Shown in pieces: positions 8,501-42,165 of a stretch of DNA of 64,000 nucleotides. Position numbers and translations under genes: made by a program. Numbering within the stretch: the first letter of the stretch is position 1; each line of letters opens with the position of its first letter. The notes under the pieces are model-generated. The model was not told where the DNA came from, searched no databases, and saw only the letters and a program-made list of their open reading frames with translations. Where the stretch lies: IMG/VR virus record IMGVR_UViG_3300046471_000063; one strand, given 5' to 3'. Source of the stretch: an uncultured virus (IMG/VR IMGVR_UViG_3300046471_000063). Taxonomy: Duplodnaviria; Heunggongvirae; Uroviricota; Caudoviricetes.

Positions 8501-8692
8501 GGGTCTTCCCCCGTCGCGGTATCGATCCAGATCAGCGGCGACGGAAACTCTCAGGTCAGCAGCAATACCTCTGGCATGGAGCAGTTCGGTGCCGAGGTCG
8601 GACGCTTTGTGGAGGCCCGCTACAAGCAGTTGGAAGCAAAATCGCTTGGCCCGCAAGGAAACATCCGTAAAGCCATCAATGGGAGGGCGTAA
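5507..8692 (+). CDS. Tape measure protein (lambda H family)
   Basis: 1061 aa, Ala-rich helical; LILTGNYAG motif; synteny. Confidence 0.92.
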   Translation: MSGTIAELGIAVDSGDAVQAATDLEKLTAAGIKAEKAADDVAAGFKKTADAADKLAEAEARAAQATDEAKARLIEVAKTSLQNSEYYQKLTTSVTSTAGAMDASRDSTASLAALQKRLQAESDALVGTNQQGAKAAKDAAAAVGVQADGLQALLGKINPALAALQKLDDQQAELKKYKDAKLIDSATFDDLSAHIEASRSKLKGFGDDTVAAKTGLSGLALGSKQARENVLQLGNALAEGNVRVAAHNLLEIGTNAGASALRIAAIAAPLALVAAGVIGLAVAYEKGAAESDEYNKQLILTGNYAGTSAGQLADVARQVSATVGTTGAAAATLAQLAGSGKIASGSFQEITEAALSMEKATGKSVDATIAEFVKIADDPVSAAKSLNEQFHFLTASVYSQILALKEQGDTIGATKLLTDTYAETVSSRSGEILKNLGLIERGWNAIKGAAAGALDATLNVGREQTLEQQIAALQKRINTPSSYDAIPIIGEDNPDLTKTGSTKEQDQSHLTFLLLQRDAEASKSKYVADRARVEQDAILATDRADARHLATLSNAEKRALEIKKINEDTQKIRAANPNDKRVTSEYVAKQIKDVNDKYKDPKGPANQLDLTGFNDAQHNLKSITGYYQNLEKELDSAQKAGLVSAESYSSQRIAIAEQEKGDVTAAYESEIAALEAARDKSTTSAQQRIQLDQKIADARTSMVKAQQDSDSQLTVLANNEQGRLAKQERSINSYVQALGQQQKALELAGQRAVLGVGRGDRQNALDAQLNSQQDRFAQQALDLANQKSDPSRNMSDEEFAKKSQALADANKKATDQIRQNYSDVQTAQGDWTNGATAAWENYLDSAKDVAGQTKSLFGNAFSSMEDAVTNFALTGKLSFSDFTKSVISDLARIAARKATAGIFSSALGLVSSAAGSYFGGSETAGSSQSDYTGSAFQDYVAGQRATGGDVAPNSLYQVNELGPELFNQGGKSYLMTGADGGSVTPLGSGGASVSAGAGGSSPVAVSIQISGDGNSQVSSNTSGMEQFGAEVGRFVEARYKQLEAKSLGPQGNIRKAINGRA

Positions 8693-12790: not shown

Positions 12791-15700
12791 ATGACCGACA
12801 CCATCGTCCGCGGCTCCAAAGGCAGCGAGAGCAGCCACACGCCTGTTGAAAGCCCGGACAGCCTGATCAACACCAGTTACGCGAACATCTTGGATGCCAT
12901 CAGCGAGGGGCCGATCGTTGGCTTGGTGAGTGGCGCTCGGTCCATTTATCTGGACGAGACACCGATTCAAGGCACCGATGGGTCCATGAACTTCACCGGC
13001 GTGACTTGGGAGCAGCGCTTCGGCGAGCACGATCAGGATTACATCACCGGCTTTCCGTCTGTAGAGACCGAACATGCGGTCGGCGTCGAGTTGAAGGCCT
13101 CCCAGCCGTGGACCCAGAGCCTGAGCAATCTGCAGTTGTCTGGCGTTCGTCTGCGTCTCGGGGCGTCTGCGCTTTATCAGCAAAACAGCGACGGCGATAC
13201 CGATGGCTTCACTGTGAACTACGTGGTCGAGCTTTCTACGGACGGCTCCGACTACGTGCCGATCATCACCACTGCGTTCAACGGCAAAACCACCACCGGT
13301 TATCAGCGCTCGCACCGCATCGATCTTCCAGCAGCTGAAGAAGGTTGGTCTATCCGCGTACGCCGCACCACGCCTGACTACACCGATGCAAAAATCGGCG
13401 ACACCACCACTGTTGTCAGCTACACCGAAGTCATCGACGCCAAGCTGCAATATCCCTACACCGCTTTGGTTGGGATCAAGATCGATGCGAGCCAGTTTTC
13501 GAACATTCCTGAGCGCGCCTTCCGCATCAAGGGCCGCATCATCCAGGTGCCGAACAACTACACCCCAGAGCTGCGCACCTATTCCGGAACTTGGGATGGC
13601 ACGTTCAAGCTGGCGTGGACCGACAATCCAGCATGGATCTACCGCGACATCATCATCAATGATCGTTACGGTCTGGGCCGCTTCATCAGCAGCGACAACG
13701 TCGACAAGTGGGAGCTTTACCAGATCGCGCAGTATTGCGATGCGATGGTCTCGGATGGCAAGGGCGGGCAGGAGCCTCGGTTCACCTGCAATCTGTATTT
13801 GCAGTCGCGAGCCGATGCGCTCCAGGTACTGCAAGATCTGGCCAGCATCTTTCGCGGCATGGCCTATTACGCTGGGAGCGAAGTAGTCGCGTCCGCCGAT
13901 ATGCCAAACGACCCGGTGTACACCTACACCAATGCCAACGTTATCGAAGGCTATTTCAGCCGCCCAGGCTCGTCCGGCTCCACTCGTTTCAGCGTTGCGA
14001 AAGTCAGCTGGACTGATCGCGACGACTTCGGCGCGCAGAAAGTCGAGTATGTGCCGAACACAAGGGCCATCGCTCGCTATGGAATTCGCGAGACTGAAAT
14101 CACGGCGTTCGGCTGCGTGTCGCAAGGCCAGGCCCAGCGTCTCGGTCATTACACGTTGCTGACCAACCAGTTGGAAACCGGCACCATTCAGTTCAGTGTC
14201 GGGCTGGATGGAGTGCTCGCGCGCCCAGGTCAGATCATCCGTGTTGCAGACCAGCACTACGCGGGCAAGCCCATCGGCGGCCGAGTCAAGGCTTCGACCA
14301 CGAACAGCGTCACCGTTGACGATGACCTGACCGTCGCCGCCGGCGACACCCTGGTCGTCATCCAGCCGAACGGTACAGCTCAGACTCGCATCATCAAAAC
14401 CGTTGCTGGGCGCGTGATCACCGTCACCGAAAGCTTCAGCGCGGCTCCAGTAACCGAGTCGGTCTACGCGATCGAAACCACAGAGGTCGTGCCTGAAACC
14501 TATCGCATCCTGACCATCACCGAGAACTTCGGTGACGACAAGCTTCAATACGACGTGGTCGCGGTTCAGCACAACGCGAGCAAATTTGCCGCCATCGACA
14601 GCGGCGCCCAGATCGTAACGCCTCCAACCACCACACTTCCTGGTGCGGTGCAGGCAATGCCCACTAACATCCAACTTTCGACCTATGAGGCCGTGAAGCA
14701 GGGCCTGACTGTCGCAACTATGCGCATTACGTGGGAGCCTGCACGCAGCGCACAGAGCTATCAGGTCTGGTGGAAGAAGGATTCGGGCGACTGGGTCTAT
14801 GCCGGTATCACTTACACCTCATCGATCGAGGTGTCGGGCATCTACACTGGCACCTATACGGCTCGGGTTTCGGCTGTTGGCGTAAATGGCAACTCGTCCC
14901 TATGGGCGTATTCCGAACCAACGCTGCTGAACGGCAAGGAAGGTTTGCCACCCGCAATCACGTCGCTGACCACCGAAAGCCTGATCTTTGGTATCGGCAT
15001 CAAGTGGACTTTCCCACCAGGTGCTGAAGACACCCAGCGTACCGAGCTCTGGTACAGCGAGGCGCCGCAGCTCGACAGCGCAACCAAGCTGGCGGATTTG
15101 GCGTATCCACAATCCGACTACACCATGCAGGGCCTGAAGGCAGGGCAATCGTTCTTCTTTTGGGCGCGCCTCGTCGACCGCACCGGCAACGTCGGCCCGT
15201 GGTATCCAGAAGCTCCTACTGTCGTGAACGGTCAGGCCAGCGCCGATGCCGACGACATTCTGGATTACCTCGTCGGCCAAATTACCGAGAGCCAGCTTGG
15301 CCAAGAGCTGCTGTCGGAAATCGGCAAGATCGGAGGCGACGGCCCGGGCTCGGTGAATGAACGACTTGACCAGGTGAAGTCCGACCTGAGCGACCAGATC
15401 ACCGACGTCAGCAACACCGTGACCGAAGTGCAGACCGAGCTGCAGGCGCAGATCGATCAGATTGCGGATCTGGCTGACTCGATGCCTTACAAGGCCGACC
15501 AGACATACACGGCCGGGCAGGGCGTGCTCGGCGCTGACGGGATCATCTATCAGGCGACCCAGAACGTGCCGGTCAACACGGCACCGCCGAACGCCACCTA
15601 CTGGCTGAACGTTGGCCAGGCAGTGCAGGCAGCGAACGGCCTGGCCGCGCGCGTCACCACCGCTGAAACCAAGATCACCAGCATCGAGGGCGTGAACGCC

Positions 15701-18700
15701 GCGCAGGCGAACCAGATCACCGGCCTGCAAACCTCGCTGGATGGCAAAGCCGATTCGTCCGTGGTCAGCAGTTTGTCGAGCCGCGTCACGACTGCCGAGA
15801 ACAGCCTCAGCAGCCAGGGCACGGCAATCACCGGCCTGACCAACAGCCTCACGACCACCAACCAGAGCGTCACGGCAGCACAGAACGCAGCGAATGCGGC
15901 GAACACGCTGGCGGGCGGGAAGGGCAAGGTCATCGTTCAGTCGGCAGCACCGGCCGCTGCCGATCAGTTGGCCCAGAACCTCTGGATCGACATCACTGGC
16001 AACGCGAATACCCCGAAACGCTGGACGGGGAGCGCGTGGGCGGCAGTTACAGACAAGGCTGCGACGGATGCTGCGGCGGCGGCTGCGAGCGCGCTGGCGC
16101 AGGTAGCGACCAAGGCTGAGGCGGCGACAGTACAGGCGCTCAGCAACACTGTGACCCAGCAGGGAACCGATCTGACAGCGGCGGGGAGCGCGATCACCAA
16201 CATCACCGCGAACCTGTCGAGCGTTGGTGGTGAGAACCTGCTGTACAACCCTTCGTTTGATCGGTTCGCCACCGCCAGTTCACCAATTGCGGACGGCTGG
16301 GTAAGTTCTGTTCCTGCAGGGCCGGTTGCGACGTTCTCTCAAGTCGCCTCCACTTTGGACCCTGCTGGTAAATCCCAACGGATCGACGTCACGGGCATGA
16401 CGACGACTACCTACGCGGACGTGACTCCAGTGGTGGCCAACCGCCCTGCGGTGTCGGCGGGTCAGGTGATCACGCTGTCCGCGTACGTCCGAGGGACGCC
16501 AGGACTTGGCTTCCAGATGTTCATGCAGCATCGTGATGCCTCCGGCGCAGTGCTGGCGACTGCGTCGCAAGGTGTCAGCGTGTTGGCTGATGGCTGGCAG
16601 CGGATTGTGCTGACCAGTGCGGCCCTGCCCGTGGGGACGGTGGTCACTACGCCGCTGTTGCGCGTGCGTCCTAACTCCGCAGGCACAATCACGGCCGGAT
16701 TCGTGGAAATAGACCGTGCTCAGCTTGAGGTCTCGGCTGTTGCGAGCGGATGGAAAGATAGCGGCAAGGTGGCGGCTGCGGATATCGCGACACAGGCTTC
16801 GGCCACAACCGCGCTGACTGGTCGCGTCACTCAGGCTGAAACTGGCCTGACAAGCGTGAGCGGTCAACTGACCACGCTGAATAACAGCATCGGGCAAATG
16901 GGCGGTGACAACTTGCTTCCCAATAGCTCGTTTGAGCAGACGCCAACTGGGGACGCTACGCGCCCTCTGTACTGGAGGGCGGGTAGCAGCGCTGGCGCCA
17001 CACCCACGCTGACATTCGTGGATTCGACGCTGAATTCAAGCATTAAAGCTGTTCGCCTCACTCGCGCTGCACTGGCAAACGGTGGCTATATCGACTTGAA
17101 CTGGCAGCCAACGGATGCCGATCAGCCAAAAGTTACGGCTGGAACTGCATACACCTTCAGTGTCTATGCGCGCCTCTCCAATGCCTCTGCGCGTCTGGTG
17201 ACGTACATCCAGTGGATGGACGCGGTGGGGACGGTGATTTCCACCTCTCAACTTGCTGAGACCGCCGTCGGCACTACTTTCGCGCGGGCGAGCCTCACGG
17301 CAACCGCTCCAGCTGGCGCTGTAAAGGCGCAGATATTTGCCGGGCGGTTAATCAATCGTTCTGGTGCAGCTGCAGACATGTGGATTGAGCTGGACAACGT
17401 ACAGCTGCAAGAAGGGGCTGTTGCGACCGCGTACAGCCCGTCAGTCCAGGCTGTGACTACTGCACAGGCGGCGACCTCGGCGGCAGTCGATTCGCTCTCG
17501 TCGACGGTTACCCAGCAGGGCACCACGCTGACCAGCGTTGCGGCGCGGACTACAACGCTTGAGAACGCCGTAAACAGCACCACTGATGGACTGGCAACCA
17601 AGGCCAGTTCGGCTGCATTGCAGACGTTGACGAACCGGGTAACCAGCGCCGAGGGCGTGAACACGGCTCAGGCGTCAAGCATCACCGATCTGCAAACCTC
17701 AGTGGGCACGATCCAGGGGGCGCTTGGGGCTTCTGGCCTTGATCCGGCGGAGAACGCGACGTGGAACTTCGACAGCACTGTAGACGGATGGGCGGCAGCT
17801 AATGCCTCGATCACATCAAATGCTGGGTATGTAACGGTTACTGCTACCACTGCAGATCCTCAGCTCACCCGTTCGGCAATCTCGGTTCAGGGCGCACTCT
17901 ATCCGATCATCCGAGCCAAGATCACGCGGCGAGCTGGTGCAGTTGGAGATTGGGACGGTCAGCTGTTTTATGTGACGTCTGGCCATGGATTTTCTGGCAG
18001 TTATCGCAAAGTGGCTGCCAACCCAAACCTAGCGGTAGGTGCGAGCGCCGTTGTTGAGTGGGACATGAGCGCGCTCACAAACGGCGGAACAGATTGGCTG
18101 AGCAACACTATCACCAGCCTGCGAATCGACCTTGGATCGACTGTAGGCGGTTCGTTCGACATCGACTGGATCGTTGTAGGTCGCGTGGGCCCAGCGGCAT
18201 CGAGTCGTGCATTGCAGTCGCTGACATCGACCGTCACCACCCAAGGCGCAACTCAGTCCGCGCAGTCACAGCAGATAACCGGGCTGCAAAGCTCTGTTGG
18301 CAGCAATACTGCCCAGTTGCAGCAGCAAGCAACCACAATCGCAGACTCCGCTGGGAAGATATCCTCGGCCTATACCCTTCGGCTGGCTACATCGGCCAAC
18401 GGGGTCAATTACGTTGCAGGGTTTGGCATCGGACTGGACAACAGCTCCGGAGTTACTCAGTCGCAGTTCGTGGTTACGGCTGACCGGTTTGCAGTGCTGA
18501 ACACGGCGGACGCTGGCGGAACATTGACATCACCTTTCATCATTGAGAACGGCCAAGTGTTCATGGCTGACGCAGTGATTAAGAGAGCCACCATTCAGAA
18601 CGCAATTGTGGGGAATTATTTGGTGTCGTCGGCCAATACAACGTGGGGCGGTCCAGTAATGTCACTCAATATGGTCACGGGCGAAATCATCGCTCGCCAT

Positions 18701-18793
18701 CCTACAAGAGCAAACACTTATACCGCCTATAACTCTGGCGGGGTTGATGTGATCGTAGATGGTGTGCGGCGCGTCAGAATGGGGACCTGGTAA
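12791..18793 (+). CDS. Tip attachment / central tail fibre (lambda J-like) with extra carbohydrate-binding-like modules
   Basis: ISEGPI, WTDNPAW, FN3-like segments, C-terminal VAGFGIG...ADRFAV; 2000 aa. Confidence 0.92.
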   Translation: MTDTIVRGSKGSESSHTPVESPDSLINTSYANILDAISEGPIVGLVSGARSIYLDETPIQGTDGSMNFTGVTWEQRFGEHDQDYITGFPSVETEHAVGVELKASQPWTQSLSNLQLSGVRLRLGASALYQQNSDGDTDGFTVNYVVELSTDGSDYVPIITTAFNGKTTTGYQRSHRIDLPAAEEGWSIRVRRTTPDYTDAKIGDTTTVVSYTEVIDAKLQYPYTALVGIKIDASQFSNIPERAFRIKGRIIQVPNNYTPELRTYSGTWDGTFKLAWTDNPAWIYRDIIINDRYGLGRFISSDNVDKWELYQIAQYCDAMVSDGKGGQEPRFTCNLYLQSRADALQVLQDLASIFRGMAYYAGSEVVASADMPNDPVYTYTNANVIEGYFSRPGSSGSTRFSVAKVSWTDRDDFGAQKVEYVPNTRAIARYGIRETEITAFGCVSQGQAQRLGHYTLLTNQLETGTIQFSVGLDGVLARPGQIIRVADQHYAGKPIGGRVKASTTNSVTVDDDLTVAAGDTLVVIQPNGTAQTRIIKTVAGRVITVTESFSAAPVTESVYAIETTEVVPETYRILTITENFGDDKLQYDVVAVQHNASKFAAIDSGAQIVTPPTTTLPGAVQAMPTNIQLSTYEAVKQGLTVATMRITWEPARSAQSYQVWWKKDSGDWVYAGITYTSSIEVSGIYTGTYTARVSAVGVNGNSSLWAYSEPTLLNGKEGLPPAITSLTTESLIFGIGIKWTFPPGAEDTQRTELWYSEAPQLDSATKLADLAYPQSDYTMQGLKAGQSFFFWARLVDRTGNVGPWYPEAPTVVNGQASADADDILDYLVGQITESQLGQELLSEIGKIGGDGPGSVNERLDQVKSDLSDQITDVSNTVTEVQTELQAQIDQIADLADSMPYKADQTYTAGQGVLGADGIIYQATQNVPVNTAPPNATYWLNVGQAVQAANGLAARVTTAETKITSIEGVNAAQANQITGLQTSLDGKADSSVVSSLSSRVTTAENSLSSQGTAITGLTNSLTTTNQSVTAAQNAANAANTLAGGKGKVIVQSAAPAAADQLAQNLWIDITGNANTPKRWTGSAWAAVTDKAATDAAAAAASALAQVATKAEAATVQALSNTVTQQGTDLTAAGSAITNITANLSSVGGENLLYNPSFDRFATASSPIADGWVSSVPAGPVATFSQVASTLDPAGKSQRIDVTGMTTTTYADVTPVVANRPAVSAGQVITLSAYVRGTPGLGFQMFMQHRDASGAVLATASQGVSVLADGWQRIVLTSAALPVGTVVTTPLLRVRPNSAGTITAGFVEIDRAQLEVSAVASGWKDSGKVAAADIATQASATTALTGRVTQAETGLTSVSGQLTTLNNSIGQMGGDNLLPNSSFEQTPTGDATRPLYWRAGSSAGATPTLTFVDSTLNSSIKAVRLTRAALANGGYIDLNWQPTDADQPKVTAGTAYTFSVYARLSNASARLVTYIQWMDAVGTVISTSQLAETAVGTTFARASLTATAPAGAVKAQIFAGRLINRSGAAADMWIELDNVQLQEGAVATAYSPSVQAVTTAQAATSAAVDSLSSTVTQQGTTLTSVAARTTTLENAVNSTTDGLATKASSAALQTLTNRVTSAEGVNTAQASSITDLQTSVGTIQGALGASGLDPAENATWNFDSTVDGWAAANASITSNAGYVTVTATTADPQLTRSAISVQGALYPIIRAKITRRAGAVGDWDGQLFYVTSGHGFSGSYRKVAANPNLAVGASAVVEWDMSALTNGGTDWLSNTITSLRIDLGSTVGGSFDIDWIVVGRVGPAASSRALQSLTSTVTTQGATQSAQSQQITGLQSSVGSNTAQLQQQATTIADSAGKISSAYTLRLATSANGVNYVAGFGIGLDNSSGVTQSQFVVTADRFAVLNTADAGGTLTSPFIIENGQVFMADAVIKRATIQNAIVGNYLVSSANTTWGGPVMSLNMVTGEIIARHPTRANTYTAYNSGGVDVIVDGVRRVRMGTW

Positions 18794-23357: not shown

Positions 23358-23388
23358 GCGCAAAACCCGCGCAAAACTGGCGCAAAAC
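23358..23388 (+). repeat. Three GCGCAAAAC direct repeats (integrase arm-type sites)
   Basis: Copies at 23358, 23369 and 23380 (11-bp period); a fourth at 23128-23136. Confidence 0.8.
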
Positions 23389-24503
23389 TATCCGGCGATG
23401 TCGCTGATATCGAGGTCCGGAATGGCCTCCGACCAGATAACCTCCGCGTGCTCCTTCTGGTAGTTTTTGGTCATCTCCTCGCTGGCGTGCCCGGCGATCT
23501 TCTGCCCATCTTTACCGGCTTTCTTGTACAGGTGCAGCGACAGTGCCCGGACTTCGTGGAAGCCTGGCATCTCTTCTTCCTTCCATCCCTTGTAACTATC
23601 CGCCGCATCCCTGGCGTCCTTGAATGCGCGCGTCAGGTAGCGTTCTTCGACCTTGGTCCAGTGTTCTTTGGACTCGGCCTGCTTTTGCCGCTTACGATCA
23701 GGTCTGCGGTGCACCAGGAATGGGGAGACGACGTTGTCACGACAATGGCTGATCACGCGGTGCAGCTCTGGCGTCACCTTGAACCTGATCCACGCCGCGT
23801 CGCTGGCTTTCGCTGTCTTCTGCTGAACCACGTATAGATAACCGTCCCTCACGTCTTCGAACTTCATAGCGAGGATATCGGTACGCCGCTGCGCAGTGAT
23901 CAACGCCAAATCGATCGCGTTTTGCAGCCAGGCGGGTGCTTTCTCCCGAATTGCCTTGAGGCCATCGACCGTATGCCGTTTGCGGGTTTTCTTCTCGATG
24001 CGGTTGATGGTGCTCGCCGCGGGGTTGTCGGGGCACAGCCCCTTGGCCGCAGCGTGATTGAAAATGTCGATCAGCAGCGCCCGGCACTGGTTGGCTGTGC
24101 GCGGCGTCAACAAGTCGAGCATTTGCGCGATCATGCGGATCGAGATCTGATCGACAGCCTTCCCTTCGAACTCACGTCGGAATCTGCGGAAGTGCACGGC
24201 GTAAAGTCCGAGCGTTCCCTTCGACAGCTCGCGCGGCGGCAGCACGTTCTTCTCGTACTCATCCAGGAAGGCGGTGAACAGCTCGGCTGATTCGCCCAGT
24301 ACTACACCGACAAGGTCGGCGCCCTGCATGAATGCCAGGTTCAGTTGCTTGGCCGCATCCACAGCCTTAACCCGGTCGGTGCCGAACTGAAACCACTTTC
24401 CATCAGTTGGGCGCCGGTACCGGTATGTCCCTCGCCGGTCATCCAGGTAAAGGTTCTGCGGCAAGCCTTTGTTCGACTTGTTGCGCGGCCGTGGGACCAT
24501 CAT
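23388..24503 (-). CDS. int: Tyrosine integrase (lambda-like arm-binding N-terminus)
   Basis: TAQRR, QQKT, FHEVR, AGH, TKNY catalytic motifs; start at 24503 or 24500. Confidence 0.95.
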   Translation of the reverse strand: MMVPRPRNKSNKGLPQNLYLDDRRGTYRYRRPTDGKWFQFGTDRVKAVDAAKQLNLAFMQGADLVGVVLGESAELFTAFLDEYEKNVLPPRELSKGTLGLYAVHFRRFRREFEGKAVDQISIRMIAQMLDLLTPRTANQCRALLIDIFNHAAAKGLCPDNPAASTINRIEKKTRKRHTVDGLKAIREKAPAWLQNAIDLALITAQRRTDILAMKFEDVRDGYLYVVQQKTAKASDAAWIRFKVTPELHRVISHCRDNVVSPFLVHRRPDRKRQKQAESKEHWTKVEERYLTRAFKDARDAADSYKGWKEEEMPGFHEVRALSLHLYKKAGKDGQKIAGHASEEMTKNYQKEHAEVIWSEAIPDLDISDIAG

Positions 24504-24712
24504 GCAGCTCCTTTCAATACCATCGCGACGAGATCGTTGCCGGCGGCTTTGTTGAACGCCGCCCAGTCGATATACCAGAGTTTGCCGATCTGCTCGCCCG
24601 GGAGCTTGCCATCTCGGATGTAGTTGCGGATTGCCTGGGGGCACGGCGGTGTCCCGTTTTCTCCCCAGCGTCGGCGCTGGAACTCACTGATCTTGATCAG
24701 TTCGCGCTTCAT
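24500..24712 (-). CDS. xis: Excisionase
   Basis: Small basic winged-helix-like protein overlapping the int start. Confidence 0.75.
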   Translation of the reverse strand: MKRELIKISEFQRRRWGENGTPPCPQAIRNYIRDGKLPGEQIGKLWYIDWAAFNKAAGNDLVAMVLKGAA

Positions 24713-24732: not shown

Positions 24733-25239
24733 CTATGCGGGGTTGAGTGGCGGGTACTTCGCCAGAACTTCGTCGGCAACTTTCATCGCGGCTTGGGCGT
24801 CGTCCACGTAGGCCGGATCGAAGCCGCCGGCGTAATGGATGGTTGCCTGGCAGGCGCGGAGGTTTTCGTGAGTTAGCTTGAGCGCCGCGGTCAACGCTTC
24901 GCGCATCTCTCCCTCGGCCCTGCACATGTCCCAGAAGCGTTTCTCCCAATGGCCCTCGGGCGGCGGGTTCGAGTTCTGGTATCCGAACGCCATGGCGCCG
25001 ACGATGCTGTCGCACAGATCGCGCTTATAGGCGTTGTCGCCCTCGATGCTCAAGCCCCGCCGACGTATTGCGCTGACCAACTCGTCCCGATCAAGACCTT
25101 GGTCCTCAATGACGATGTCCCGCTCGGGCTCGCCTGGGGTGTAGATGACAAGCGCCAACCTGGCACCGGGAAGGCAGTGCTCGCTGAGTTTGACCAGCGC
25201 GTCGTTGGCGGCTTGGTGGAAACGTTGAACTGCAGACAT
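24733..25239 (-). CDS. Hypothetical early phage protein
   Basis: GAGGA RBS before MSAVQRFH. Confidence 0.7.
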   Translation of the reverse strand: MSAVQRFHQAANDALVKLSEHCLPGARLALVIYTPGEPERDIVIEDQGLDRDELVSAIRRRGLSIEGDNAYKRDLCDSIVGAMAFGYQNSNPPPEGHWEKRFWDMCRAEGEMREALTAALKLTHENLRACQATIHYAGGFDPAYVDDAQAAMKVADEVLAKYPPLNPA

Positions 25240-25637
25240 AGGAAATCCTCGCCCGCCATACATCGGCGTGCATCTTGATAAAGGGGAAGGGGTTAGAGGT
25301 TTACGGACTGGGCAATTGCGACAGACTTCGCGGCTGAGTCGGTGCGAAATATGAGGTTGCGGATCTCTACCCTGTCCGGCTGGTGTATTCTGAGTACGCT
25401 ACACTTGCTCCGCTCACCTCGCGAAGTCTCGGACGCTGAACTCAAGGCCGGTTACTCCACTGCCATAGGGCGGCTCGGTTTGCAGTGATCAGCCGGTACT
25501 AAACTGCGCAGCGATACTCAGGAGTTGTAGGGATCACCAACCGCTGCCGCGCTTTCAGGCGTCAGCGGCTTTTAAACTAATCTAAAAATTTACTGACATG
25601 GCCCAAAGATCCCGCCGTGAGCGCTCGTACTACTGGC

Positions 25638-26411
25638 TTACAGCCGCTCCATGGGTAGCTCTCCCAGTACCAACTTAGTCGGCTGCAAATATGGAAATCT
25701 GTCGGAGCACATCATAGTGGCCTGGACAACTAGTGAAGCGTCGTCATGCTTTGCATTATCGTCTTCATACGGCGTTACGATCAGTGAGAGTTTGTCTTGA
25801 ACGCCTTCAGCGGTATTAATCGAGACGATTCGACACCTCCTATCAGCCGGGAAGTCAACGAGAGCGAGGTGATCGCCGGTGATTCCATAATGAAGGATAT
25901 CGCATAGCTCGCCCGAATATGCTTTATGCCTAAGGTGTAGGCATGTCGAGTACTTCAAATTGCAAATAGAGCAGATTTGTTGTTTGGCAGTGAACCCAGC
26001 GCTGACAAAGTTCTGCTTTGGAAAGATGAGCTGTTCTATGGTTGTTAATCGAAGGCTAATTTCTCCGCCGTGCTGAAAACCTTCGTGGGCTCGACAAGCG
26101 TCCATTAAGGCCATCTGAGCGGCTACATACTGATCCCATGCTTCATTTGGTTTGTCGAACTTAAGCAATATCCACATTCTTATTTCGCTCAGCACCGCAC
26201 CAGCGGCACACTGGTAGCCTAGGAAAAGATTGGCAACATTCTCCTCTCCATGCTCGATCGCTTTCTTCTTATTTAGCAGAGCATAATAAATCAGATTTTC
26301 TAATATTCCGCACTGCTCAAGCTGGAGCTTTGTGTCCCTTGCGGGTGAACTGAATTCTTCTGCAGTTTTTATTATGGAGTTGTACTGCTGAATTATTTCG
26401 TCCAAGTTCAT
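25638..26411 (-). CDS. Cys-rich protein with prohead-protease-like C-terminal motifs; candidate defence gene
   Basis: AT-rich; FVSAGF...CSIC...C.H...C...DHLALVDFPADRRCRI. Confidence 0.7.
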   Translation of the reverse strand: MNLDEIIQQYNSIIKTAEEFSSPARDTKLQLEQCGILENLIYYALLNKKKAIEHGEENVANLFLGYQCAAGAVLSEIRMWILLKFDKPNEAWDQYVAAQMALMDACRAHEGFQHGGEISLRLTTIEQLIFPKQNFVSAGFTAKQQICSICNLKYSTCLHLRHKAYSGELCDILHYGITGDHLALVDFPADRRCRIVSINTAEGVQDKLSLIVTPYEDDNAKHDDASLVVQATMMCSDRFPYLQPTKLVLGELPMERL

Positions 26412-26911
26412 TGCTCAATTCTTTCTAAGATGCTTGAAAGCTCGGCCATGCCCTCTATTGGCCCGCTGTACGATAATTTTCTAAACTCACCGGTCTTGGT
26501 TTCCCTAATTATGTTGAGTTTTACAGTTTGAGTCTTGCTACCTTTGAATGCGTCATAAAGATAGTTTGTGATGAGCCCGAGTATCACTGACGTCACGTTC
26601 GGGTTCTGAAGGAGCGCAGCTAGTGGAATGAGGATGGTTGGGCCAAACCAGTCGTCGCTGTAGTTCTGGTGGTAGACGATACCTTCGTTAGAATCAAATA
26701 ATTCTTGATAGGGGATCTGGTTTTGATTGAGCAGAGTCCTCAGCGTGTCGGCCTCAGCAGCCTGAACTAACTCGGCGACCTCGGTTGCCGAGAAAATATT
26801 ATCCGGAACCACTGAAATTTCACTGATCGGTGCCGCACCGAGACGCGTGAGTTTCGCCATAAAATCGGGTAACGCGTGGTTTTCAATTGCCATTGTCTTG
26901 TGTCCTTTCAT
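26408..26911 (-). CDS. Protein with internal hydrophobic hairpin; partner of 25638-26411
   Basis: AT-rich; ATGA overlap with downstream gene. Confidence 0.75.
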   Translation of the reverse strand: MKGHKTMAIENHALPDFMAKLTRLGAAPISEISVVPDNIFSATEVAELVQAAEADTLRTLLNQNQIPYQELFDSNEGIVYHQNYSDDWFGPTILIPLAALLQNPNVTSVILGLITNYLYDAFKGSKTQTVKLNIIRETKTGEFRKLSYSGPIEGMAELSSILERIEQ

Positions 26912-27094
26912 AATTGTGGTTTACCGCTCGCCAGCATGAGGGGCACGCAACTCCCTTACCCGCAGCCCTTGCGGAACGTTCTCTACTAACCTTTGAGTCC
27001 AAATTGTGCCGCTTGCCTTTTATAGCCGCCGTCAAGGCGCCGCGCCAGCAAATACAGGTTCAGTTCTAGCAATCGGTGCGGTATCCGCTGTGGC

Positions 27095-27421
27095 TCATGT
27101 CGTCATCATTGGTCTGACCCAGACGCAGACAGGACCGTCTTCAGTATCGTGAATCGAGAAGATGAACCAGCCGTCACCGGCAGGCTTCGTCGGTGTCCAA
27201 GGTGTGCAATCGATTTCCCCTTCGCCAAACCAGGCAGCTACCCAGTCTTCTGGGCCATCGTTTTCCATTTCAACGAGGCCGAGCTCAAGACCGTGCTCGG
27301 CGAACCAGCTATAGGGGGGCTGACTTTCTTCGCCGTCATCCGGCCAGGCTGGGTGTGTCCATTGGCCGTACTAGTCGCGCTCGACCGGCAATTGACTTAT
27401 TTCCTGCTTTTCTTCAGGCAT
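27095..27421 (-). pseudogene. Early phage gene with in-frame TAG at codon 17
   Basis: MPEEKQEISQLPVERD*YGQWTHP...GWFIFSIHDTEDGP; RBS present; frame continues 91 more codons. Confidence 0.75.
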
Positions 27422-33598: not shown

Positions 33599-33769
33599 TC
33601 AGGGCTTTTTGATCAGCGGCCAGATCAGCAACAAGATCAGGACAGCGAGAAACCCATCGGCGCACATGCTGATGATTCGAGACACTGAGTCGATCAGCAC
33701 CACGCCAACGAGCAGGGCCATAATGAGGAACGCCCGCAAGCGATTCCCCATCTGTTTGACCCAGGCCAT
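33599..33769 (-). CDS. Small two-TM membrane protein (TciB-like position)
   Basis: TGATG coupling to the TerB-like gene; hydrophobic. Confidence 0.65.
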   Translation of the reverse strand: MAWVKQMGNRLRAFLIMALLVGVVLIDSVSRIISMCADGFLAVLILLLIWPLIKKP

Positions 33770-34215
33770 CAGTCTTCGAAGTCTTTCAGATTCAGCCCCA
33801 GCCACTTGGCTGCTTGCTCCAGCGCTTTGCGCTCGGCGTCGTCGATGCCGCCTTCATCTGCGATGGTCAGCATGATGTTCATCACCGTCTTCGCTTCTTC
33901 CGGTGAGTGCTTCAGATCGCTCAGTTCTTTCTCAGCGTTCTGGCGCAGGATGCGGCGGCCACCATCTTTGAAGTCCGCTTCTGCACGGTCGATCGTGTCG
34001 CTCAGTTCGGCGCCGAAGCCCTTGAGTAGCGGGTTGTTTGCTATCAGCTTCTCGGTCTTCTTCAGTTCCGATTCAGCCAAGTCGCCGTCAGCAGCGGCGA
34101 TGAAGATCGCGCCATAAACAACGGCCTGCATCAGGTCACGGTTCACGTTTTTCGACATGGCCGCGGTTGCCTCAGCAGACGCCTTTTTAAACTTCTTTCC
34201 GAAAATTCCTAACAT
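33769..34215 (-). CDS. TerB-family protein (P1 TciA-like)
   Basis: IAAADG...SE and IADEGGIDDAER acidic helical repeats. Confidence 0.8.
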   Translation of the reverse strand: MLGIFGKKFKKASAEATAAMSKNVNRDLMQAVVYGAIFIAAADGDLAESELKKTEKLIANNPLLKGFGAELSDTIDRAEADFKDGGRRILRQNAEKELSDLKHSPEEAKTVMNIMLTIADEGGIDDAERKALEQAAKWLGLNLKDFED

Positions 34216-34276
34216 GGTGATGCCTCGGGTTGGGGGATTTCCCATCAGCCCCTCGCGAGAAGGGCTGCTAGCGAAA

Positions 34277-35794: not shown

Positions 35795-36448
35795 TCAAAG
35801 TTTACCCGTCATGCGGACGGCCACTCCAATGATCCGACAGTTTTCATCGCACTCGACCATCTTGTAGTCCGGGTTCAAAGGTTTCAAATACCGAATCCCT
35901 CCGTCCTCTACGAGCTTTTTGAAAGTCGCCTCGTTGCTGGCGGGAAGCTTGGCTATCACCAGCTTTCCTGGCTTCACGTCGGCTTCGGTGTCGACAAGGA
36001 TCATCATTCCTTCGGGAACGCTTGTCCCCGATGGGGCAGTCATCGAATCGCCTTTTACTTCAAGCCAAAACGCAGGTCCTTTCGAGTCGTAATCAGACAA
36101 TTCATATCGATCAGAGAAGCCGTCCGGGTATGGCTGTACTGCCTCCTCCCAGGAACCGGCCGAGACCCAGCTGATGACAGGATAGCGATAGAGCATCTCA
36201 GGCTGGACTACGGACTTGACGTTCGATGGCTCAACAGGCTCTGAGATCATCTGACCAGCTCCGCTTTCTATCCATATCGCAGAAACCCCACAGGCTTTTG
36301 CGATGGAAGCGTTGTAAGAGGAGCGGGCGGATCGACCCCTTTCGAGGTCCGATATTGATGCCTGGTCGATGCCGACCAGTTTCGCTAATTGCGCCTGGGT
36401 GAGGCCGGCGTGGCGCCGTGCGGCCTTGATGCGTTCTTTATATTCCAT
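35795..36448 (-). CDS. cI: CI-like repressor (HTH + S24 peptidase)
   Basis: LTQAQLAKLVG HTH, VSAG cleavage site, GDSM Ser, TFKKL Lys; real start MEYKERIK at 36448. Confidence 0.95.
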   Translation of the reverse strand: MEYKERIKAARRHAGLTQAQLAKLVGIDQASISDLERGRSARSSYNASIAKACGVSAIWIESGAGQMISEPVEPSNVKSVVQPEMLYRYPVISWVSAGSWEEAVQPYPDGFSDRYELSDYDSKGPAFWLEVKGDSMTAPSGTSVPEGMMILVDTEADVKPGKLVIAKLPASNEATFKKLVEDGGIRYLKPLNPDYKMVECDENCRIIGVAVRMTGKL

Positions 36449-36460
36449 CTCCCGATTATT

Positions 36461-36522
36461 ACTGGTGCTCCCATATCGTTGCAAAGAGGTATACCTATGC
36501 TCTACGATATGGGTATTCACAT
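36461..36522. promoter_or_regulatory. OR: three 14-bp operators, 24-bp period
   Basis: ACTGGTGCTCCCAT, AGAGGTATACCTAT, ATGGGTATTCACAT between divergent cI and cro. Confidence 0.85.
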
Positions 36523-36535
36523 ACGGAGGGGCAGC

Positions 36536-36751
36536 ATGAACACCATCTTTAAGGACCTCGTTGCCCACTTCGGGACGCAAGAGGTCACCGCCGAGAAGCT
36601 GAAGGTCGATCAAAGCACGGTTTCTGGCTGGGTCCGAGGTAAGCACGGTATGTCTCCTGTTATTGCCAAGCGGGCTGAAGATTTGACTGGCGGGGCATTC
36701 AAAAAAGAAGCCCTGTGTCCCGCTTTTCCATGGGCCGAAATGGTGGCCTGA
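36536..36751 (+). CDS. cro: Cro-like repressor
   Basis: Divergent from cI; HTH QEVTAEKLKVDQSTVSGW. Confidence 0.88.
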   Translation: MNTIFKDLVAHFGTQEVTAEKLKVDQSTVSGWVRGKHGMSPVIAKRAEDLTGGAFKKEALCPAFPWAEMVA

Positions 36752-36839
36752 GCCGACATCCGTGTCGTTCTGATCCTTGAGAAACATTTTGCAATGCGTG
36801 GTGGCAGAGCGCCACGCGAGAAACGATGAGGTTTTCGCA

Positions 36840-37271
36840 ATGGAACATTTTGAGAGAACGCTGCACCGGGAAGTGAAGGCTGATGGCGGCACCGCCCTGG
36901 CGAAACGGATGGGCGTGAACGAAACGCGGCTGCTGGACTGCGCTAACCCAAATCGTGAAGCGCACCGCATGAATCTGGAAATGTTCGGCCAGGTTCTTAC
37001 CCACCTTTCGGAAGAGTCGCGCGCGATCGTGCTGGCATCTCTGCTGGACGAGTTCGGCTATTCGCTGGTGAAGCAGGAAGTGGCGGAAGTGAAGGCTCTG
37101 CCGGCGGCGCTGGCTTTCGTGGGAAAGGAATTCGCTGACCTGACGTTGGCTGTCCACAACGCGCTGGAAGACGGCCACGTTACCCAGATTGAGAAGGCAT
37201 CGATCAGCAAAGAGATCGCGCACATCCGGCGCGAGATCGATTCGATTGAGGCATCCGTCAGGGCTGCATAA
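36840..37271 (+). CDS. CII-like regulatory protein
   Basis: Position after cro; LAKRMG, NPNRE, DGHVT..E. Confidence 0.7.
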   Translation: MEHFERTLHREVKADGGTALAKRMGVNETRLLDCANPNREAHRMNLEMFGQVLTHLSEESRAIVLASLLDEFGYSLVKQEVAEVKALPAALAFVGKEFADLTLAVHNALEDGHVTQIEKASISKEIAHIRREIDSIEASVRAA

Positions 37272-40450: not shown

Positions 40451-40879
40451 GTGATTGCTGCGCAACCCAAAATATTCAAGAAGCGCACCCGGGCGAAGCC
40501 AGTCGACCGCGAGGGCATGGAGCAGGCCGCGCTGATGAAGGAACTGACGCTGCGCCTGCCGAAGGTTGCTGCGCTGATCTATCACGTTCCCAACGGTGGC
40601 CAGCGGCACAAGCTGGTGGCCATCAAGCTGAAACAGCAGGGCGTGAAAGCCGGTGTTCCCGATCTGGTGCTACCAATGGCCCGCGGCGGGTACTTCGGCC
40701 TGTACCTGGAATTCAAGGCCACGGCACCGAATGACGCTGCCGTATCGGCCAGCCAGCACGCATGGATTCATCAGCTCAACGAGCAAGGCTATCTCGCGAT
40801 CGTATGCCGTGGGCACTTCGACGCGATGGAACAGATCCGTGCCTACCTCACACTCCCTCAGACCGTGGCGGCAGCATGA
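40451..40879 (+). CDS. VRR-NUC nuclease
   Basis: HVPNGG, GVKAGVPDL, LEFK, SASQ..W. Confidence 0.88.
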   Translation: MIAAQPKIFKKRTRAKPVDREGMEQAALMKELTLRLPKVAALIYHVPNGGQRHKLVAIKLKQQGVKAGVPDLVLPMARGGYFGLYLEFKATAPNDAAVSASQHAWIHQLNEQGYLAIVCRGHFDAMEQIRAYLTLPQTVAAA

Positions 40880-42165
40880 CCAGCACAGCAGCGGTAAAAA
40901 TCACAGATCCCGAGATCAAACGGCAGGCAGCGGGAACCGTCCGAGATCTGCGCGACGTTGAGAACAAAGGCCTGTACCTGCGCTTCGGCCAGGACAGGTC
41001 GCGGCCTGTCTGGTATCTGGTCCGCAAGCGCCGGTGGAGCCGGATCGGCGCGTTTCCCGACCTGACCACCAAGCAGGTTGTCGCGGCGTTGCCCGGCATC
41101 AGGCTGCGAGTGGAAGAGGGTGCCCGCACGGCGCTGTCGAAGTGGGAAACCACCGGCGAGCTGCTGGATTGGTACGCGGAACGAATGTCGAAGGATCGCA
41201 ACCTGTCCGCCAAGCGCAAGAAAACAGGTGCCTCGGCGATCAAGTGCCACTTGCGTCCGCGCCTTGCTGACACCCGCCTGATCGACATCACCAAGGCCAC
41301 CCTGGACACAGAACTGATGTGGCCGCTGCAGGAGACGCTTTCAATCGACTATGTGCGGCTGGTCTTCCAGTTGCTGGCGCTGGCGTTCCGGCAGGCTTAT
41401 CGGTTGGGCCTGATCACAGCCAACCCGATGAAAGACATAAAGTTCAGCGACTTCTCAAAGGCCCGGGTCGGCATCAAGCCGTCGAGGCTGCGCGGCGTCC
41501 AACTCTCTGACCTTCTCGCTCAGCTGGCGGATGTGTTCGACAGCAACCCCAAGGACGCCATGCTGGCTCTGCTGATGCTTTGCCACGGCACGCGCATCGG
41601 TGAAAGCCGGTTGGCGCAGTGGCCACACATGACGTTGGGCGAGCGCGAGTGGTTCATTCCCGGCGAGCACACGAAGACCGGCGTCGAGCATCACCTGCCA
41701 CTGACTGAGCAGGTCTGCGCCATCCTGATCCGTTACCGCGAATGGCAACACGCCAACGGCTATGACGGGCAGTACCTGTTCCCGTCCCGCAACGGCAAGC
41801 CACTGAGCGAAGGCCAGGCCAGCGCCGTGTTCGCCCGGCTGGGCGGTGGTGAGTGGACAAGCCACGACCTGCGCAAGGTGGCGCGAACCGGCTGGGCAGA
41901 CATCGGCATTGACCATCTGATCGGTGAACTGCTGATCAACCACGCCATGGGCCACAACGTGAAGGTGTACATCCAGTCGGACGTGATGAGCCGCAAGCGC
42001 GATGCCTTGGAACGCTGGCACGCACTGTTAGATAGCAAGGGGCTGACCCTCATCCATAAGTTGACAGAGGATAGATTCGGAGATTCTGGTAATTCTCTGG
42101 AAGCCACGGCGGATAAGGGCTGCGAGCCTTCCCGCGAATCAACCATAGGCGAGGTTTCAAAATGA
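40876..42165 (+). CDS. Second tyrosine recombinase (integrase family)
   Basis: GTRIGE, HTKT, HDLRK, INH, VY catalytic residues; arm-binding-like N-terminus. Confidence 0.88.
   Translation: MTSTAAVKITDPEIKRQAAGTVRDLRDVENKGLYLRFGQDRSRPVWYLVRKRRWSRIGAFPDLTTKQVVAALPGIRLRVEEGARTALSKWETTGELLDWYAERMSKDRNLSAKRKKTGASAIKCHLRPRLADTRLIDITKATLDTELMWPLQETLSIDYVRLVFQLLALAFRQAYRLGLITANPMKDIKFSDFSKARVGIKPSRLRGVQLSDLLAQLADVFDSNPKDAMLALLMLCHGTRIGESRLAQWPHMTLGEREWFIPGEHTKTGVEHHLPLTEQVCAILIRYREWQHANGYDGQYLFPSRNGKPLSEGQASAVFARLGGGEWTSHDLRKVARTGWADIGIDHLIGELLINHAMGHNVKVYIQSDVMSRKRDALERWHALLDSKGLTLIHKLTEDRFGDSGNSLEATADKGCEPSRESTIGEVSK

What the first reader, a model, noticed from the sequence alone, without database searches (positions are those of the whole stretch)
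25638..26911. Candidate new anti-phage system: prohead-protease/assemblin-like protein plus hydrophobic-hairpin partner
Seen: an AT-rich two-gene cassette (ATGA-coupled) inserted in the early operon. The 257-aa protein has a helical N-half, then FVSAGF-[CSIC-x6-C-x-H-x10-C]-DHLALVDFPADRRCRI. This aligns by eye with this phage's own prohead protease (GLSIGY...EISIVTVPANDEAR, 48596-49297). Established: clan SH proteases (HK97 prohead protease, herpes assemblin) carry the catalytic Ser in the S-x-G/S strand, and assemblin has a His in HVALC. The 167-aa partner has a polar loop, an amphipathic hairpin (WFGPTILIPLAALL...VILGLITNYLYD) and a short beta tail, reminiscent of protease-associated effectors such as EACC1. 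Inference: a domesticated capsid-maturation protease with a Zn insert senses phage assembly and cleaves the partner into a membrane toxin, or acts as a decoy that poisons head assembly.
Basis: partly seen in the sequence, partly recalled or inferred. Interest (0 to 1): 0.88.

Follow-up and report, generated by a model that had tools for sequence, protein, structure and literature searches.

The report
Half-protease and partner prophage cassette
A prophage carries a mobile two-gene cassette whose larger protein is built from the rear half of a phage head-maturation protease and is predicted to clasp a small protein of unknown fold; the pair travels on viruses, plasmids and defence islands of bacteria and archaea and is a good but untested candidate for a new anti-phage system.

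Summary
Two ATGA-overlapping genes lie on the minus strand: B at 26408-26911 and A at 25638-26411. They form a low-GC cassette in the early-left region of a lambdoid Pseudomonas-type prophage.

The protease likeness is real but partial. A combines an N-terminal helical bundle with only the C-terminal half of a zinc-knuckle prohead protease. It matches Bacillus phage 0305phi8-36 gp123 protease/scaffold, and more weakly DUF2213 and S78 profiles. Ser137 and the CxxC...CxH knuckle are invariant in 130 of 130 relatives. Position 181 is Glu or His in 124 of 130. The N-terminal half that carries the catalytic His in gp123 is missing, so a canonical protease is unlikely.

B is a confidently folded soluble protein with no known fold and no transmembrane signal.

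- **Pairing:** the pair occurs together in 20 of 20 further loci, including an archaeal pleolipovirus and plasmids.
- **Binding:** the co-fold score is 0.76 against a best control of 0.02, and B sits on A's vestigial active-site face.
- **Defence context:** 4 of 10 genomic loci adjoin Pycsar, CBASS or SoFic, and one relative is fused to a Shedu nuclease.
- **Known systems:** there is no match in PADLOC.

My best reading, at about 0.5 confidence, is a new sensor-effector defence module. The membrane-toxin and cleavage ideas are not supported.

The parts
26408..26911 (-). Gene B, the partner. The longest ORF is 167 aa. The likely start is Met7 at 26893, giving 161 aa.
26651..26767 (-). B residues 49-87: a helix (53-63) and a strand (79-81) that make most of the predicted contacts with A.
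   Evidence: Interface list of the co-fold. These residues include the conserved D55, T56, R58, T59, Y80, Q82 and Y84 of alignment A2.
26546..26650 (-).
   Evidence: Modelled as strand 88-95 plus helices 97-102 and 106-122. Maximum KD19 is 1.54 here and 1.06-1.54 across 15 homologues. Bacteroidota and archaeal homologues carry K/D/E inside the stretch.
25638..26411 (-). Gene A, 257 aa: a helical domain plus a half prohead-protease-like domain.
   Evidence: ORF. AF2 gives pLDDT 89.6 and pTM 0.87. The family has 1286 cluster representatives at E<=1e-3.
26082..26411 (-). A residues 1-110: an N-terminal four-helix, TPR-like bundle with invariant W92.
25767..26069 (-). A residues 115-215: the region homologous to the C-terminal half of prohead proteases (helix, Ser strand, Zn knuckle, E/H-x-S/A-x-V strand, PAD(K/R)RCR).
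   Evidence: BLASTP to 0305phi8-36 gp123 residues 136-232 gives E 3e-10 pairwise; tblastn gives 5e-4 against 2.3 Gb of phage DNA. hhalign to DUF2213 gives probability 82-88%. hhalign to S78 gives 55%. Reversed controls give <=0.2%. The top Foldseek BFVD hit is 'Prohead protease'.
26001..26003 (-). Codon of Ser137, which aligns with the Ser of gp123 'LSVGG'.
   Evidence: Coordinates checked. Invariant in 130 of 130. Aligned.
25902..25973 (-). Zn knuckle C147-x2-C150-x6-C157-x-H159, plus C170.
   Evidence: All five residues are present in 130 of 130. gp123 shares C, C, C and H but has Ala at the position of C170.
25830..25877 (-). Strand and loop GDHLALVDFPADRRCR (residues 179-194), which matches EISIVTVPANDEAR of the phage's own S78 protease at profile level.
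   Evidence: hhalign of A3 against S78 aligns residues 173-200 with 139-166 of the window's protease. Position 181 is E in 81 and H in 43 of 130; R194 is present in 118 of 130.
24918..27103 (.). The stretch shared at 90% DNA identity with IMG/VR contig L057, whose flanks have diverged. It marks the exchanged cassette plus part of the neighbouring phrog_16138 gene.
   Evidence: blastn. The neighbouring 176-aa gene is found only in the close relatives L057 and L058. The relative Pseudomonas phage Medea1 has other small genes at this place.

Best explanation
The two genes form one mobile module that encodes a heteromeric complex.

Protein A is a domesticated fragment of a phage head-maturation protease. 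It keeps only the rear half of the fold: the helix before the Ser strand, the Ser strand, a CxxC...CxH zinc knuckle and the (E/H)-x-(S/A)-x-V...PAD(K/R)RCR strand. A new N-terminal helical bundle replaces the front half, which carries the catalytic His in real proteases. A is therefore most likely a pseudo-protease that binds rather than cuts.

Protein B is a soluble alpha/beta protein of no known fold. It is predicted to dock on A's vestigial active-site face, touching Ser137-145, the zinc knuckle and residues 178-193.

Shown: the homology, the missing front half, the co-conservation of the pair, its mobile-element and defence-island context, and a passing co-fold.

Inferred: the module is an anti-phage (superinfection-exclusion or abortive-infection) system carried by temperate viruses and plasmids. 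A would act as the sensor or regulator, as in its fusion to a Shedu nuclease. It would recognise a head-assembly component of an incoming tailed virus (capsid or scaffold substrate peptide, or the viral protease) at the same face that holds B. B would then be released or activated as the effector. What B then does is unknown.
For: **Homology to prohead proteases**
- tblastn to 0305phi8-36 ORF123 'protease/scaffold' gives E 5e-4. Pairwise BLASTP gives 3e-10 and 30% identity over 97 aa, including the same CSIC...C-H knuckle.
- hhalign of A1 against DUF2213 gives probability 82-88%.
- hhalign of A3 against S78 gives 55%, E 1.2e-4. Reversed controls give <=0.2%.
- Head-maturation-protease PHROGs match a few members: phrog_530 matches 2 of 25, best E 4.9e-4.
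- The top BFVD Foldseek hit is 'Prohead protease', E 1.2e-2.
- The Atlas lead is a cluster with 12% Peptidase_S78 members, score 0.92.

**Conservation**
- S137, C147, C150, C157, H159, Y165, C170 and W92 are present in 130 of 130. Position 181 is E or H in 124 of 130.

**Pairing**
- A B-like ORF lies directly upstream of A in 11 of 11 genome loci and in 9 of 9 further loci.
- The further loci include the archaeal pleolipovirus Humcor2, Rhizobium and Haloterrigena plasmids and 4 IMG/VR contigs.
- The gene junction overlaps or leaves a gap of <=28 nt in 19 of 19 pairs. Pairwise identities of A and B correlate with r 0.93, with 0 of 2000 permutations as high.

**Binding**
- The co-fold score is 0.76 (three runs); the best of 3 controls is 0.02. 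That mark was reached by 116 of 157 solved complexes and 2 of 215 mismatched pairs.
- The runs agree in >=94% of contacts, and the partner's pLDDT is >=84.

**Defence context**
- Within about 6.5 kb lie Pycsar (L002), CBASS (L003, L007) and SoFic (L005), so 4 of 10 loci hold a named system. L006 has a PD-T4-6-like kinase (Pfam).
- One relative, P0133, carries a C-terminal Shedu SduA nuclease domain (Pfam 7.5e-16; PADLOC 6.9e-28). Shedu N-terminal domains are regulatory or sensor domains (bioRxiv 10.1101/2023.08.10.552793, passages read).

**Distribution**
- The family is rare and patchy: 2 of 396 scored genomes in a family-level sample.
- It sits at different accessory sites of temperate phages and never in a head module.
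Against: - No experiment or expression data exist: no RNA run was listed and no sigma-70-like promoter was found on the minus strand.
- 5 of 10 loci show no clear known defence gene. No background control for enrichment was run.
- The Shedu fusion is a single sequence on one 2.4-kb contig.
- B has no recognisable toxic or enzymatic domain. Only P30, P85, Y142 and G144 are invariant across 15 diverse homologues.
- The profile probabilities to S78 and DUF2213 are modest, and the C-domain was never compared with solved protease structures on its own. The helical domain filled the hit lists.
- Ser137 and E/H181 are conserved as in active enzymes, so catalysis cannot be ruled out.
- Mobile-element context fits an addiction or counter-defence role equally well.
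- Two copies are decayed: L007 is frameshifted, and in L011 the A match stops after about residue 96.
Confidence: 0.5

Rival explanations
1. A is an active serine protease that senses phage assembly and cleaves B into a membrane toxin.
For: Ser137 is invariant in 130 of 130. Position 181 is E or H in 124 of 130, mirroring the E-x-S of S78 and the H-x-A of DUF2213. R194 is present in 118 of 130. B is predicted to lie right on this face. B has a 30-residue uncharged hydrophobic stretch in the window's subgroup.
Against: The N-terminal half of the fold is absent. In gp123 that half holds the '...PVLKNH...' His motif. The only invariant His (H159) sits in the CxxC...CxH knuckle that gp123 also has. 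H109 is present in only 84 of 130. B never reaches the classical hydropathy threshold of 1.6, has charged residues in the stretch in distant homologues and folds as a compact soluble protein.
Confidence: 0.15
2. The pair is a toxin-antitoxin or addiction-type module, or a regulator of the element's own life cycle. It would stabilise prophages and plasmids without a dedicated anti-phage role.
For: The two small genes are translationally coupled and are predicted to form a tight complex. They are found on plasmids, prophages, a pleolipovirus and islands next to MazF and Fic genes. Copies can decay, as in L007.
Against: Neither protein matches any TA family in Pfam, NCBIfam or PADLOC. There is no DNA-binding domain for autoregulation. 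The fusion of A to a Shedu nuclease suggests a sensor role.
Confidence: 0.15
3. The pair is a counter-defence module of mobile elements. A protease look-alike would act as a decoy or inhibitor that keeps host sensors of prohead-protease activity, or the element's own protease, in check.
For: Prohead proteases are triggers of CBASS (PMC12991175, abstract read). The cassette is carried by viruses and plasmids at early or accessory positions. Two loci lie beside CBASS.
Against: The carrier pleolipovirus has no protease or capsid annotated in the 9.3 kb viewed, so there is nothing of its own to hide. The module also sits in chromosomal islands without a phage. The Shedu fusion joins A to a defence nuclease.
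Confidence: 0.1
4. The pair is a virion-assembly accessory: a spare or auxiliary head protease subunit.
For: Homology to a protease/scaffold protein.
Against: The phage has its own complete S78 protease in the head module. The pair is never in a head module. It also occurs on plasmids and a capsid-less pleolipovirus.
Confidence: 0.03

Closest known systems
Prohead (capsid-maturation) serine proteases: Bacillus phage 0305phi8-36 gp123 protease/scaffold, Pfam Peptidase_S78 (PF04586) and DUF2213 (PF09979). That these are grouped with herpesvirus assemblin in MEROPS clan SH / Pfam clan Peptidase_SH is recalled, not checked here.
   Same: A shares the helix before the Ser strand, the Ser strand (S137 aligns with the Ser of gp123 'LSVGG'), the CxxC...CxH knuckle, Y-x-G, and the (E/H)-x-(S/A)-x-V..PA(D/N) strand.
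   Different: A lacks the whole N-terminal half, including the catalytic-His motif, and has an unrelated helical bundle instead. It is not in a head module, is always paired with B, and is found on plasmids and a capsid-less archaeal virus.
Type 1 Shedu (SduA) nucleases with variable N-terminal regulatory domains (bioRxiv 10.1101/2023.08.10.552793)
   Same: One relative (P0133) has the A architecture in front of an SduA_C nuclease domain. There, A occupies the place of a sensor or regulatory domain.
Defence systems triggered by phage head proteins or head protease: CBASS activated by prohead-protease cleavage (PMC12991175, abstract read), and a TIR system sensing capsids (PMC11312562, search listing only). 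CapRel-SJ46 and Lit/Gol are recalled.
   Same: The proposed logic is the same: a late head-assembly component as the infection signal.
   Different: None of those uses a protease-derived domain as the sensor. The trigger here is inferred, not shown.
Type II toxin-antitoxin pairs
   Same: Two small overlapping genes, a predicted tight heterocomplex, and mobile-element carriage.
   Different: No known toxin or antitoxin fold or family, and no DNA-binding domain.
   Same: Only a weak language-model neighbour: score 0.79, in a cluster where 22% of members carry EACC1.
   Different: No Pfam match at E<=1 for B and none at E<=10 in any of 15 homologues.

Membership tests
Prohead serine protease (S78 / DUF2213 / gp123 type, clan SH) | Significant sequence or profile similarity to bona fide prohead proteases | tested here: met
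   Met for residues about 115-206 only. gp123 gives E 5e-4 against the database and 3e-10 pairwise. DUF2213 hhalign gives 82-88%. S78 hhalign gives 55%. Reversed controls give <=0.2%. The Pfam S78 model itself does not match A at E<=1.
Prohead serine protease (S78 / DUF2213 / gp123 type, clan SH) | Nucleophile Ser in the S-x-G strand | tested here: met
   S137 is present in 130 of 130 and aligns with the Ser of gp123 'LSVGG' and DUF2213 'elSaGY'.
Prohead serine protease (S78 / DUF2213 / gp123 type, clan SH) | Catalytic His in the N-terminal beta half ('pll.nH' motif) | tested here: not met
   Residues 1-110 of A are helices. The homology to gp123 starts at its residue 136, downstream of its '...PVLKNH...' motif. 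The only invariant His outside that half is the Zn-knuckle H159.
Prohead serine protease (S78 / DUF2213 / gp123 type, clan SH) | Acidic or His residue in the (E/H)-x-(S/A)-x-V strand | tested here: met
   Position 181 is E in 81 and H in 43 of 130. The window has His.
Prohead serine protease (S78 / DUF2213 / gp123 type, clan SH) | Complete protease fold by structure comparison | tested here: inconclusive
   The BFVD top hit is 'Prohead protease', but at E 1.2e-2 over 114 columns. The PDB searches were filled by the helical domain.
Prohead serine protease (S78 / DUF2213 / gp123 type, clan SH) | Gene placed in the head module between portal and capsid genes | tested here: not met
   The window's head module (terminase, portal, S78 protease at 45366-49297) is 19 kb away. 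In L059 the pair lies between ParB-like and Ant/Q genes.
Known anti-phage systems (PADLOC-DB v2.0.0) | Match of either protein to a model of a known or candidate system | tested here: not met
   0 families for A, B and the 176-aa neighbour at E<=1. Newer DefenseFinder models were not available.
Shedu | SduA_C (DUF4263) PD-(D/E)xK nuclease domain | tested here: not met
   Absent from A and B. Present only in the fused relative P0133.
EACC1 / membrane-hairpin effector (for B) | Match to PF19953, or a transmembrane hairpin | tested here: not met
   No Pfam hit. Maximum KD19 is 1.06-1.54, below 1.6, in 15 of 15 homologues. The AF2 model is globular. No dedicated TM predictor was available.
Two-gene operonic heterocomplex | Conserved adjacency and order, and a predicted interface above controls | tested here: met
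   Adjacency holds in 20 of 20 further loci. The co-fold score is 0.76 against a best control of 0.02. That mark was reached by 116 of 157 solved and 2 of 215 mismatched pairs. Runs agree in >=94% of contacts and the partner's pLDDT is >=84.

The most novel reading that the evidence does not exclude
The module is a virus-derived 'guard'. The rear half of a capsid-maturation protease has been domesticated into a pseudo-enzyme that holds a novel-fold effector on its dead active site. Head-assembly proteins of an invading tailed virus (its capsid or scaffold cleavage peptides, or its own protease) would compete for or cut that site and set the effector free, aborting the infection. The same module would work in bacteria and in haloarchaea, carried by temperate phages, plasmids and even a capsid-less pleolipovirus as a weapon against rival viruses.
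Probability: 0.3. Interest if true: 0.85.

Novelty: new variant of a known kind. Interest (0 to 1): 0.72.

Why it matters
If the pair protects against phages, it would add a widespread system to the defence catalogue: 1286 clusters at 50% identity, spanning two domains of life. Its sensor is visibly recycled from a viral assembly enzyme. That gives a directly testable case of immunity built from the enemy's own protease fold, and a sensor aimed at late, capsid-stage signals. The vestigial active site covered by the partner suggests a simple release mechanism that mutants and escape phages could probe. B would also be a new protein fold with a new effector or adaptor activity. If the pair does not protect, it is still an uncharacterised, strictly paired cargo module of temperate viruses and plasmids that deserves a name.

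Tried and rejected
- **Family libraries:** Pfam, NCBIfam and PADLOC gave nothing for A or B. PHROGs gave only phrog_16951, of unknown function.
- **Profile search of PDB sequences with A3:** only a designed repeat protein, nothing relevant.
- **B as the missing front half of the protease:** hhalign of B's alignment against S78, DUF2213 and A3 gave probability <=0.4%.
- **Longer or fused forms:** none found at 509-2000 aa, which is weak evidence.
- **RNA elements and tRNA near the cassette:** none above noise.
- **Promoter and terminator scan:** no minus-strand site, and counts were at the shuffle level.
- **Own genome:** none is held for this window.
- **Earlier scan notes:** none for this place or sequence.
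- **hhalign power check:** my small DUF2213 and S78 alignments match each other at only 5% probability, so the modest A-to-S78 values understate rather than overstate kinship.
- **Literature:** searches for DUF2213, 'prohead protease' with 'anti-phage' and 'defense system', 'prohead protease' with 'conflict systems', Shedu N-terminal domains, Humcor2 and 0305phi8-36 protease (listing only) turned up no description of this pair. That is not proof that none exists.
Full report
**What is there.** The minus strand holds two ORFs: B at 26408-26911 (167 aa) and A at 25638-26411 (257 aa). They are joined by an ATGA stop/start overlap. Homologues of B begin at its Met7, so the real protein is probably 161 aa, starting at 26893. 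GC drops to 0.425-0.50 over the pair, against 0.58-0.63 around it.

PHROG annotation shows a lambdoid prophage:
- integrase at 23388-24644;
- a run of minus-strand early genes up to a CI-like repressor at 35795-36970;
- then Ant, an O-like initiator, a DnaB-like helicase, a Q-like antiterminator, terminase, portal and an S78 prohead protease at 48596-49297 (Pfam E 1.5e-41).

The motif FVSAGF-CSIC-x6-C-x-H-x10-C...GDHLALVDFPADRRCRI is there as written.

**The cassette is movable cargo.**
- An IMG/VR contig (L057) shares 90% DNA identity with the window only over 24918-27103, while its flanks are alike only at protein level. A second contig (L058) is collinear throughout.
- The related Pseudomonas phage Medea1 matches the methyltransferase side but has other small genes between that region and its integrase.
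- In another temperate phage contig (L059) the pair sits in the early-right region, between a ParB-like gene and Ant/HNH/Q.

**Is A protease-like?** Pairwise BLASTP of A against the phage's own protease is not significant (E 0.15, wrong register). No Pfam, NCBIfam or PADLOC model matches A. Six other results nevertheless point the same way:
1. tblastn against 50,697 phage records finds Bacillus phage 0305phi8-36 ORF123, annotated 'protease/scaffold' (E 5e-4). The pairwise alignment (E 3e-10, 30% over 97 residues) covers A 118-206 and gp123 136-232. It pairs S137 with the Ser of 'LSVGG', the CSIC...C-H knuckle with an identical knuckle in gp123, and GDHLALVDFPAD with GDEISFVNMPAD.
2. Scanning 25 family members singly, 4 touch DUF2213 (best E 0.0063). 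A few touch head-maturation-protease PHROGs: phrog_530 in 2 of 25, best 4.9e-4. 24 of 25 match phrog_16951, of unknown function.
3. hhalign of the family alignment against 22 DUF2213 domains, cut from the 23 loci, gives probability 82-88% (E 1e-5 to 3e-6). It aligns the Ser strand and the His/Glu strand.
4. hhalign of the 130-sequence alignment against 8 S78 proteins, headed by the window's own protease, gives probability 55% (E 1.2e-4). Reversed-sequence controls score probability <=0.2%. My two small protease alignments reach only 5% against each other, so this test has little power.
5. Foldseek of the AF2 model (pLDDT 89.6, pTM 0.87) against BFVD ranks a 'Prohead protease' first (E 1.2e-2, 114 columns), with two more at ranks 13 and 17.
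6. The language-model atlas puts A 112-235 next to a cluster in which 12% of members carry Peptidase_S78 (score 0.92).

Searches of solved structures said nothing about this domain, because the N-terminal helices filled every list.

**What kind of protease relative.** The homology starts at the helix before the Ser strand. Everything upstream in A (residues 1-110) is a four-helix bundle. In gp123 the upstream 135 residues hold the strand-rich half, with a '...PVLKNH...' motif. Reading that motif as the catalytic-His motif of S78-type enzymes is my inference: the same His/Ser pairing appears in the DUF2213-S78 alignment.

A representative search found 1286 clusters at E<=1e-3 (538 at <=1e-10, 267 at <=1e-30). 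From the best 150 I dropped 21 fragments or over-long sequences and aligned the other 129 with the window protein. The counts below are:

| Residue | Count of 130 |
|---|---|
| W92, S137, C147, C150, C157, H159, Y165, C170 | 130 each |
| Position 181 | Glu 81, His 43 |
| Position 183 | Ser 83, Ala 40 |
| K191 | 117 |
| R194 | 118 |
| H109 | 84 |
| C193 | 94 |

So the nucleophile-like Ser and the E/H position are kept. The Zn knuckle is inherited from this protease lineage and is not a new insert. No conserved general-base His is available outside the knuckle. I conclude that A is most likely a pseudo-protease; residual or unusual catalysis is not excluded.

Its maximum 19-residue Kyte-Doolittle value is 1.54 here and 1.06-1.54 across 15 homologues, below the classical 1.6. 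It carries Lys, Asp and Glu in Bacteroidota and archaeal homologues. Across those 15 sequences only P30, P85, Y142 and G144 are invariant, which does not look like an enzyme.

**The two genes belong together.**
- In 11 of 11 loci from species-representative genomes, a B-like ORF lies directly upstream of the A-like ORF. These genomes are Paraburkholderia, Janthinobacterium, Comamonas, alphaproteobacterial MAGs, a Campylobacteraceae MAG, Prolixibacter, Sunxiuqinia and Telmatospirillum. In L007 both genes are frameshifted, and in L011 the A match stops after about residue 96.
- The same holds in 9 of 9 further loci: four IMG/VR contigs, a Rhizobium plasmid, a Haloterrigena plasmid, two distant copies (a Burkholderiaceae genome and Acinetobacter) and the haloarchaeal pleolipovirus Humcor2.
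- In 19 of 19 intact pairs the junction overlaps or leaves <=28 nt. The pairwise identities of A and B correlate (r 0.93; 0 of 2000 permutations as high). Shared descent alone would also give this correlation.

A co-fold of the two alignments scored 0.76 in three runs, against a best control of 0.02. That mark was reached by 116 of 157 solved complexes and 2 of 215 mismatched pairs. The runs agree in >=94% of contacts and the partner's pLDDT is >=84. The model supports binding; it does not show it. In the model, B's helix 53-63 and strand 79-81, which carry its best-conserved polar residues, lie on A residues 137-145, 154-163 and 178-193. That is the Ser strand, the knuckle and the E/H strand.

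**Context.**
- Pfam and PADLOC scans of the neighbours were run on 97 and 92 ORFs of the 11 and 10 loci. Five short or distal ORFs were dropped for the second scan.
- They show a complete Pycsar beside L002, CBASS beside L003 and L007, and SoFic (with MazF) beside L005. That makes 4 of 10 loci with a named system. L006 has a PD-T4-6-like kinase.
- The other five loci show only weak or no matches.
- Mobile-element genes are common: P2 Ogr/GPA, a primase, integrase with IS110, and Zot.
- I ran no background control, so this is suggestive and not a statistic.
- The family is rare: 2 of 396 scored genomes in a family-level sample, with 5 genomes not scored.
- One relative (P0133, 422 aa) continues into a Shedu SduA nuclease domain (Pfam 7.5e-16; PADLOC 6.9e-28). 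It is a singleton on a 2.4-kb contig. In Shedu the N-terminal domains are regulatory or sensor modules (passages of bioRxiv 10.1101/2023.08.10.552793).
- Another relative is a tandem A-A protein from a planctomycete.

**Mechanism proposed.** The shown facts are the homology, the missing half, the pairing, the context and the predicted interface. From these I infer a sensor-effector module. A keeps B on the remnant of the protease's substrate and active-site face. A head-assembly component of an infecting tailed virus engages the same face, and B is freed to act. That prohead-protease activity is already used as an infection signal by CBASS (abstract of PMC12991175) makes a capsid-stage trigger plausible. 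Nothing here identifies the trigger or B's activity.

**Rivals.** Each is weighed in its own section of this report.

**Novelty.** Neither protein matches PADLOC v2.0.0. All ten clusters I looked up are unnamed or 'hypothetical protein'. My literature searches found no description. Newer DefenseFinder models and the Shedu paper's supplement could not be checked. I rate the finding as a new variant of a known kind: a mobile two-gene conflict module with an unusual sensor derived from a viral enzyme.

Noticed in passing
window 1-22700: The left third of the window is the tail module of a second phage. It holds a tape-measure protein at 5507-8692 and a 2000-aa central tail fibre J-like protein at 12791-18793. 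It ends just before the integrase of the prophage studied here. The two are either tandem prophages or a join in a metagenome assembly.
   Followed up: partly
window 40762-42165: A second tyrosine-integrase-like gene (phrog_1, E 1.2e-50) lies inside the prophage, between the DnaB-like helicase and the Q-like antiterminator. It may mark a nested element.
   Followed up: no
window 27095-27268: A 57-aa ORF matches only positions 114-156 of the 194-position phrog_1372. It is an apparent gene remnant, and its end lies just inside the upstream edge (27103) of the exchanged cassette.
   Followed up: partly
window 33599-34245: The same early operon also carries TciB-like and tellurite-resistance-like (phrog_632) moron genes.
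   Followed up: no
L009:795-2162 and L010:6233-7459: In both Bacteroidota loci a 408-455-aa protein ending in a SEC-C zinc motif lies directly upstream of the pair on the same strand. It may be a third component in that lineage.
   Followed up: no
L004:6039-7487 and L004:8716-10173: In an alphaproteobacterial MAG the pair is overlapped upstream by an HTH-M78 (IrrE-like) ScfRs-type regulator and downstream by a 485-aa protein with no Pfam match. This suggests a four-gene operon there.
   Followed up: no
P0041 (Frigoriglobus tundricola, 497 aa): A single protein made of two tandem copies of the whole A architecture.
   Followed up: partly
L048:2596-4065 (Bacillus phage 0305phi8-36 gp123): A bona fide protease/scaffold protein carries a CxxC...CxH knuckle between its Ser strand and its last conserved strand. 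Zinc-knuckle prohead proteases therefore form a lineage of their own, which Pfam S78 did not detect in this copy at E<=0.1.
   Followed up: partly
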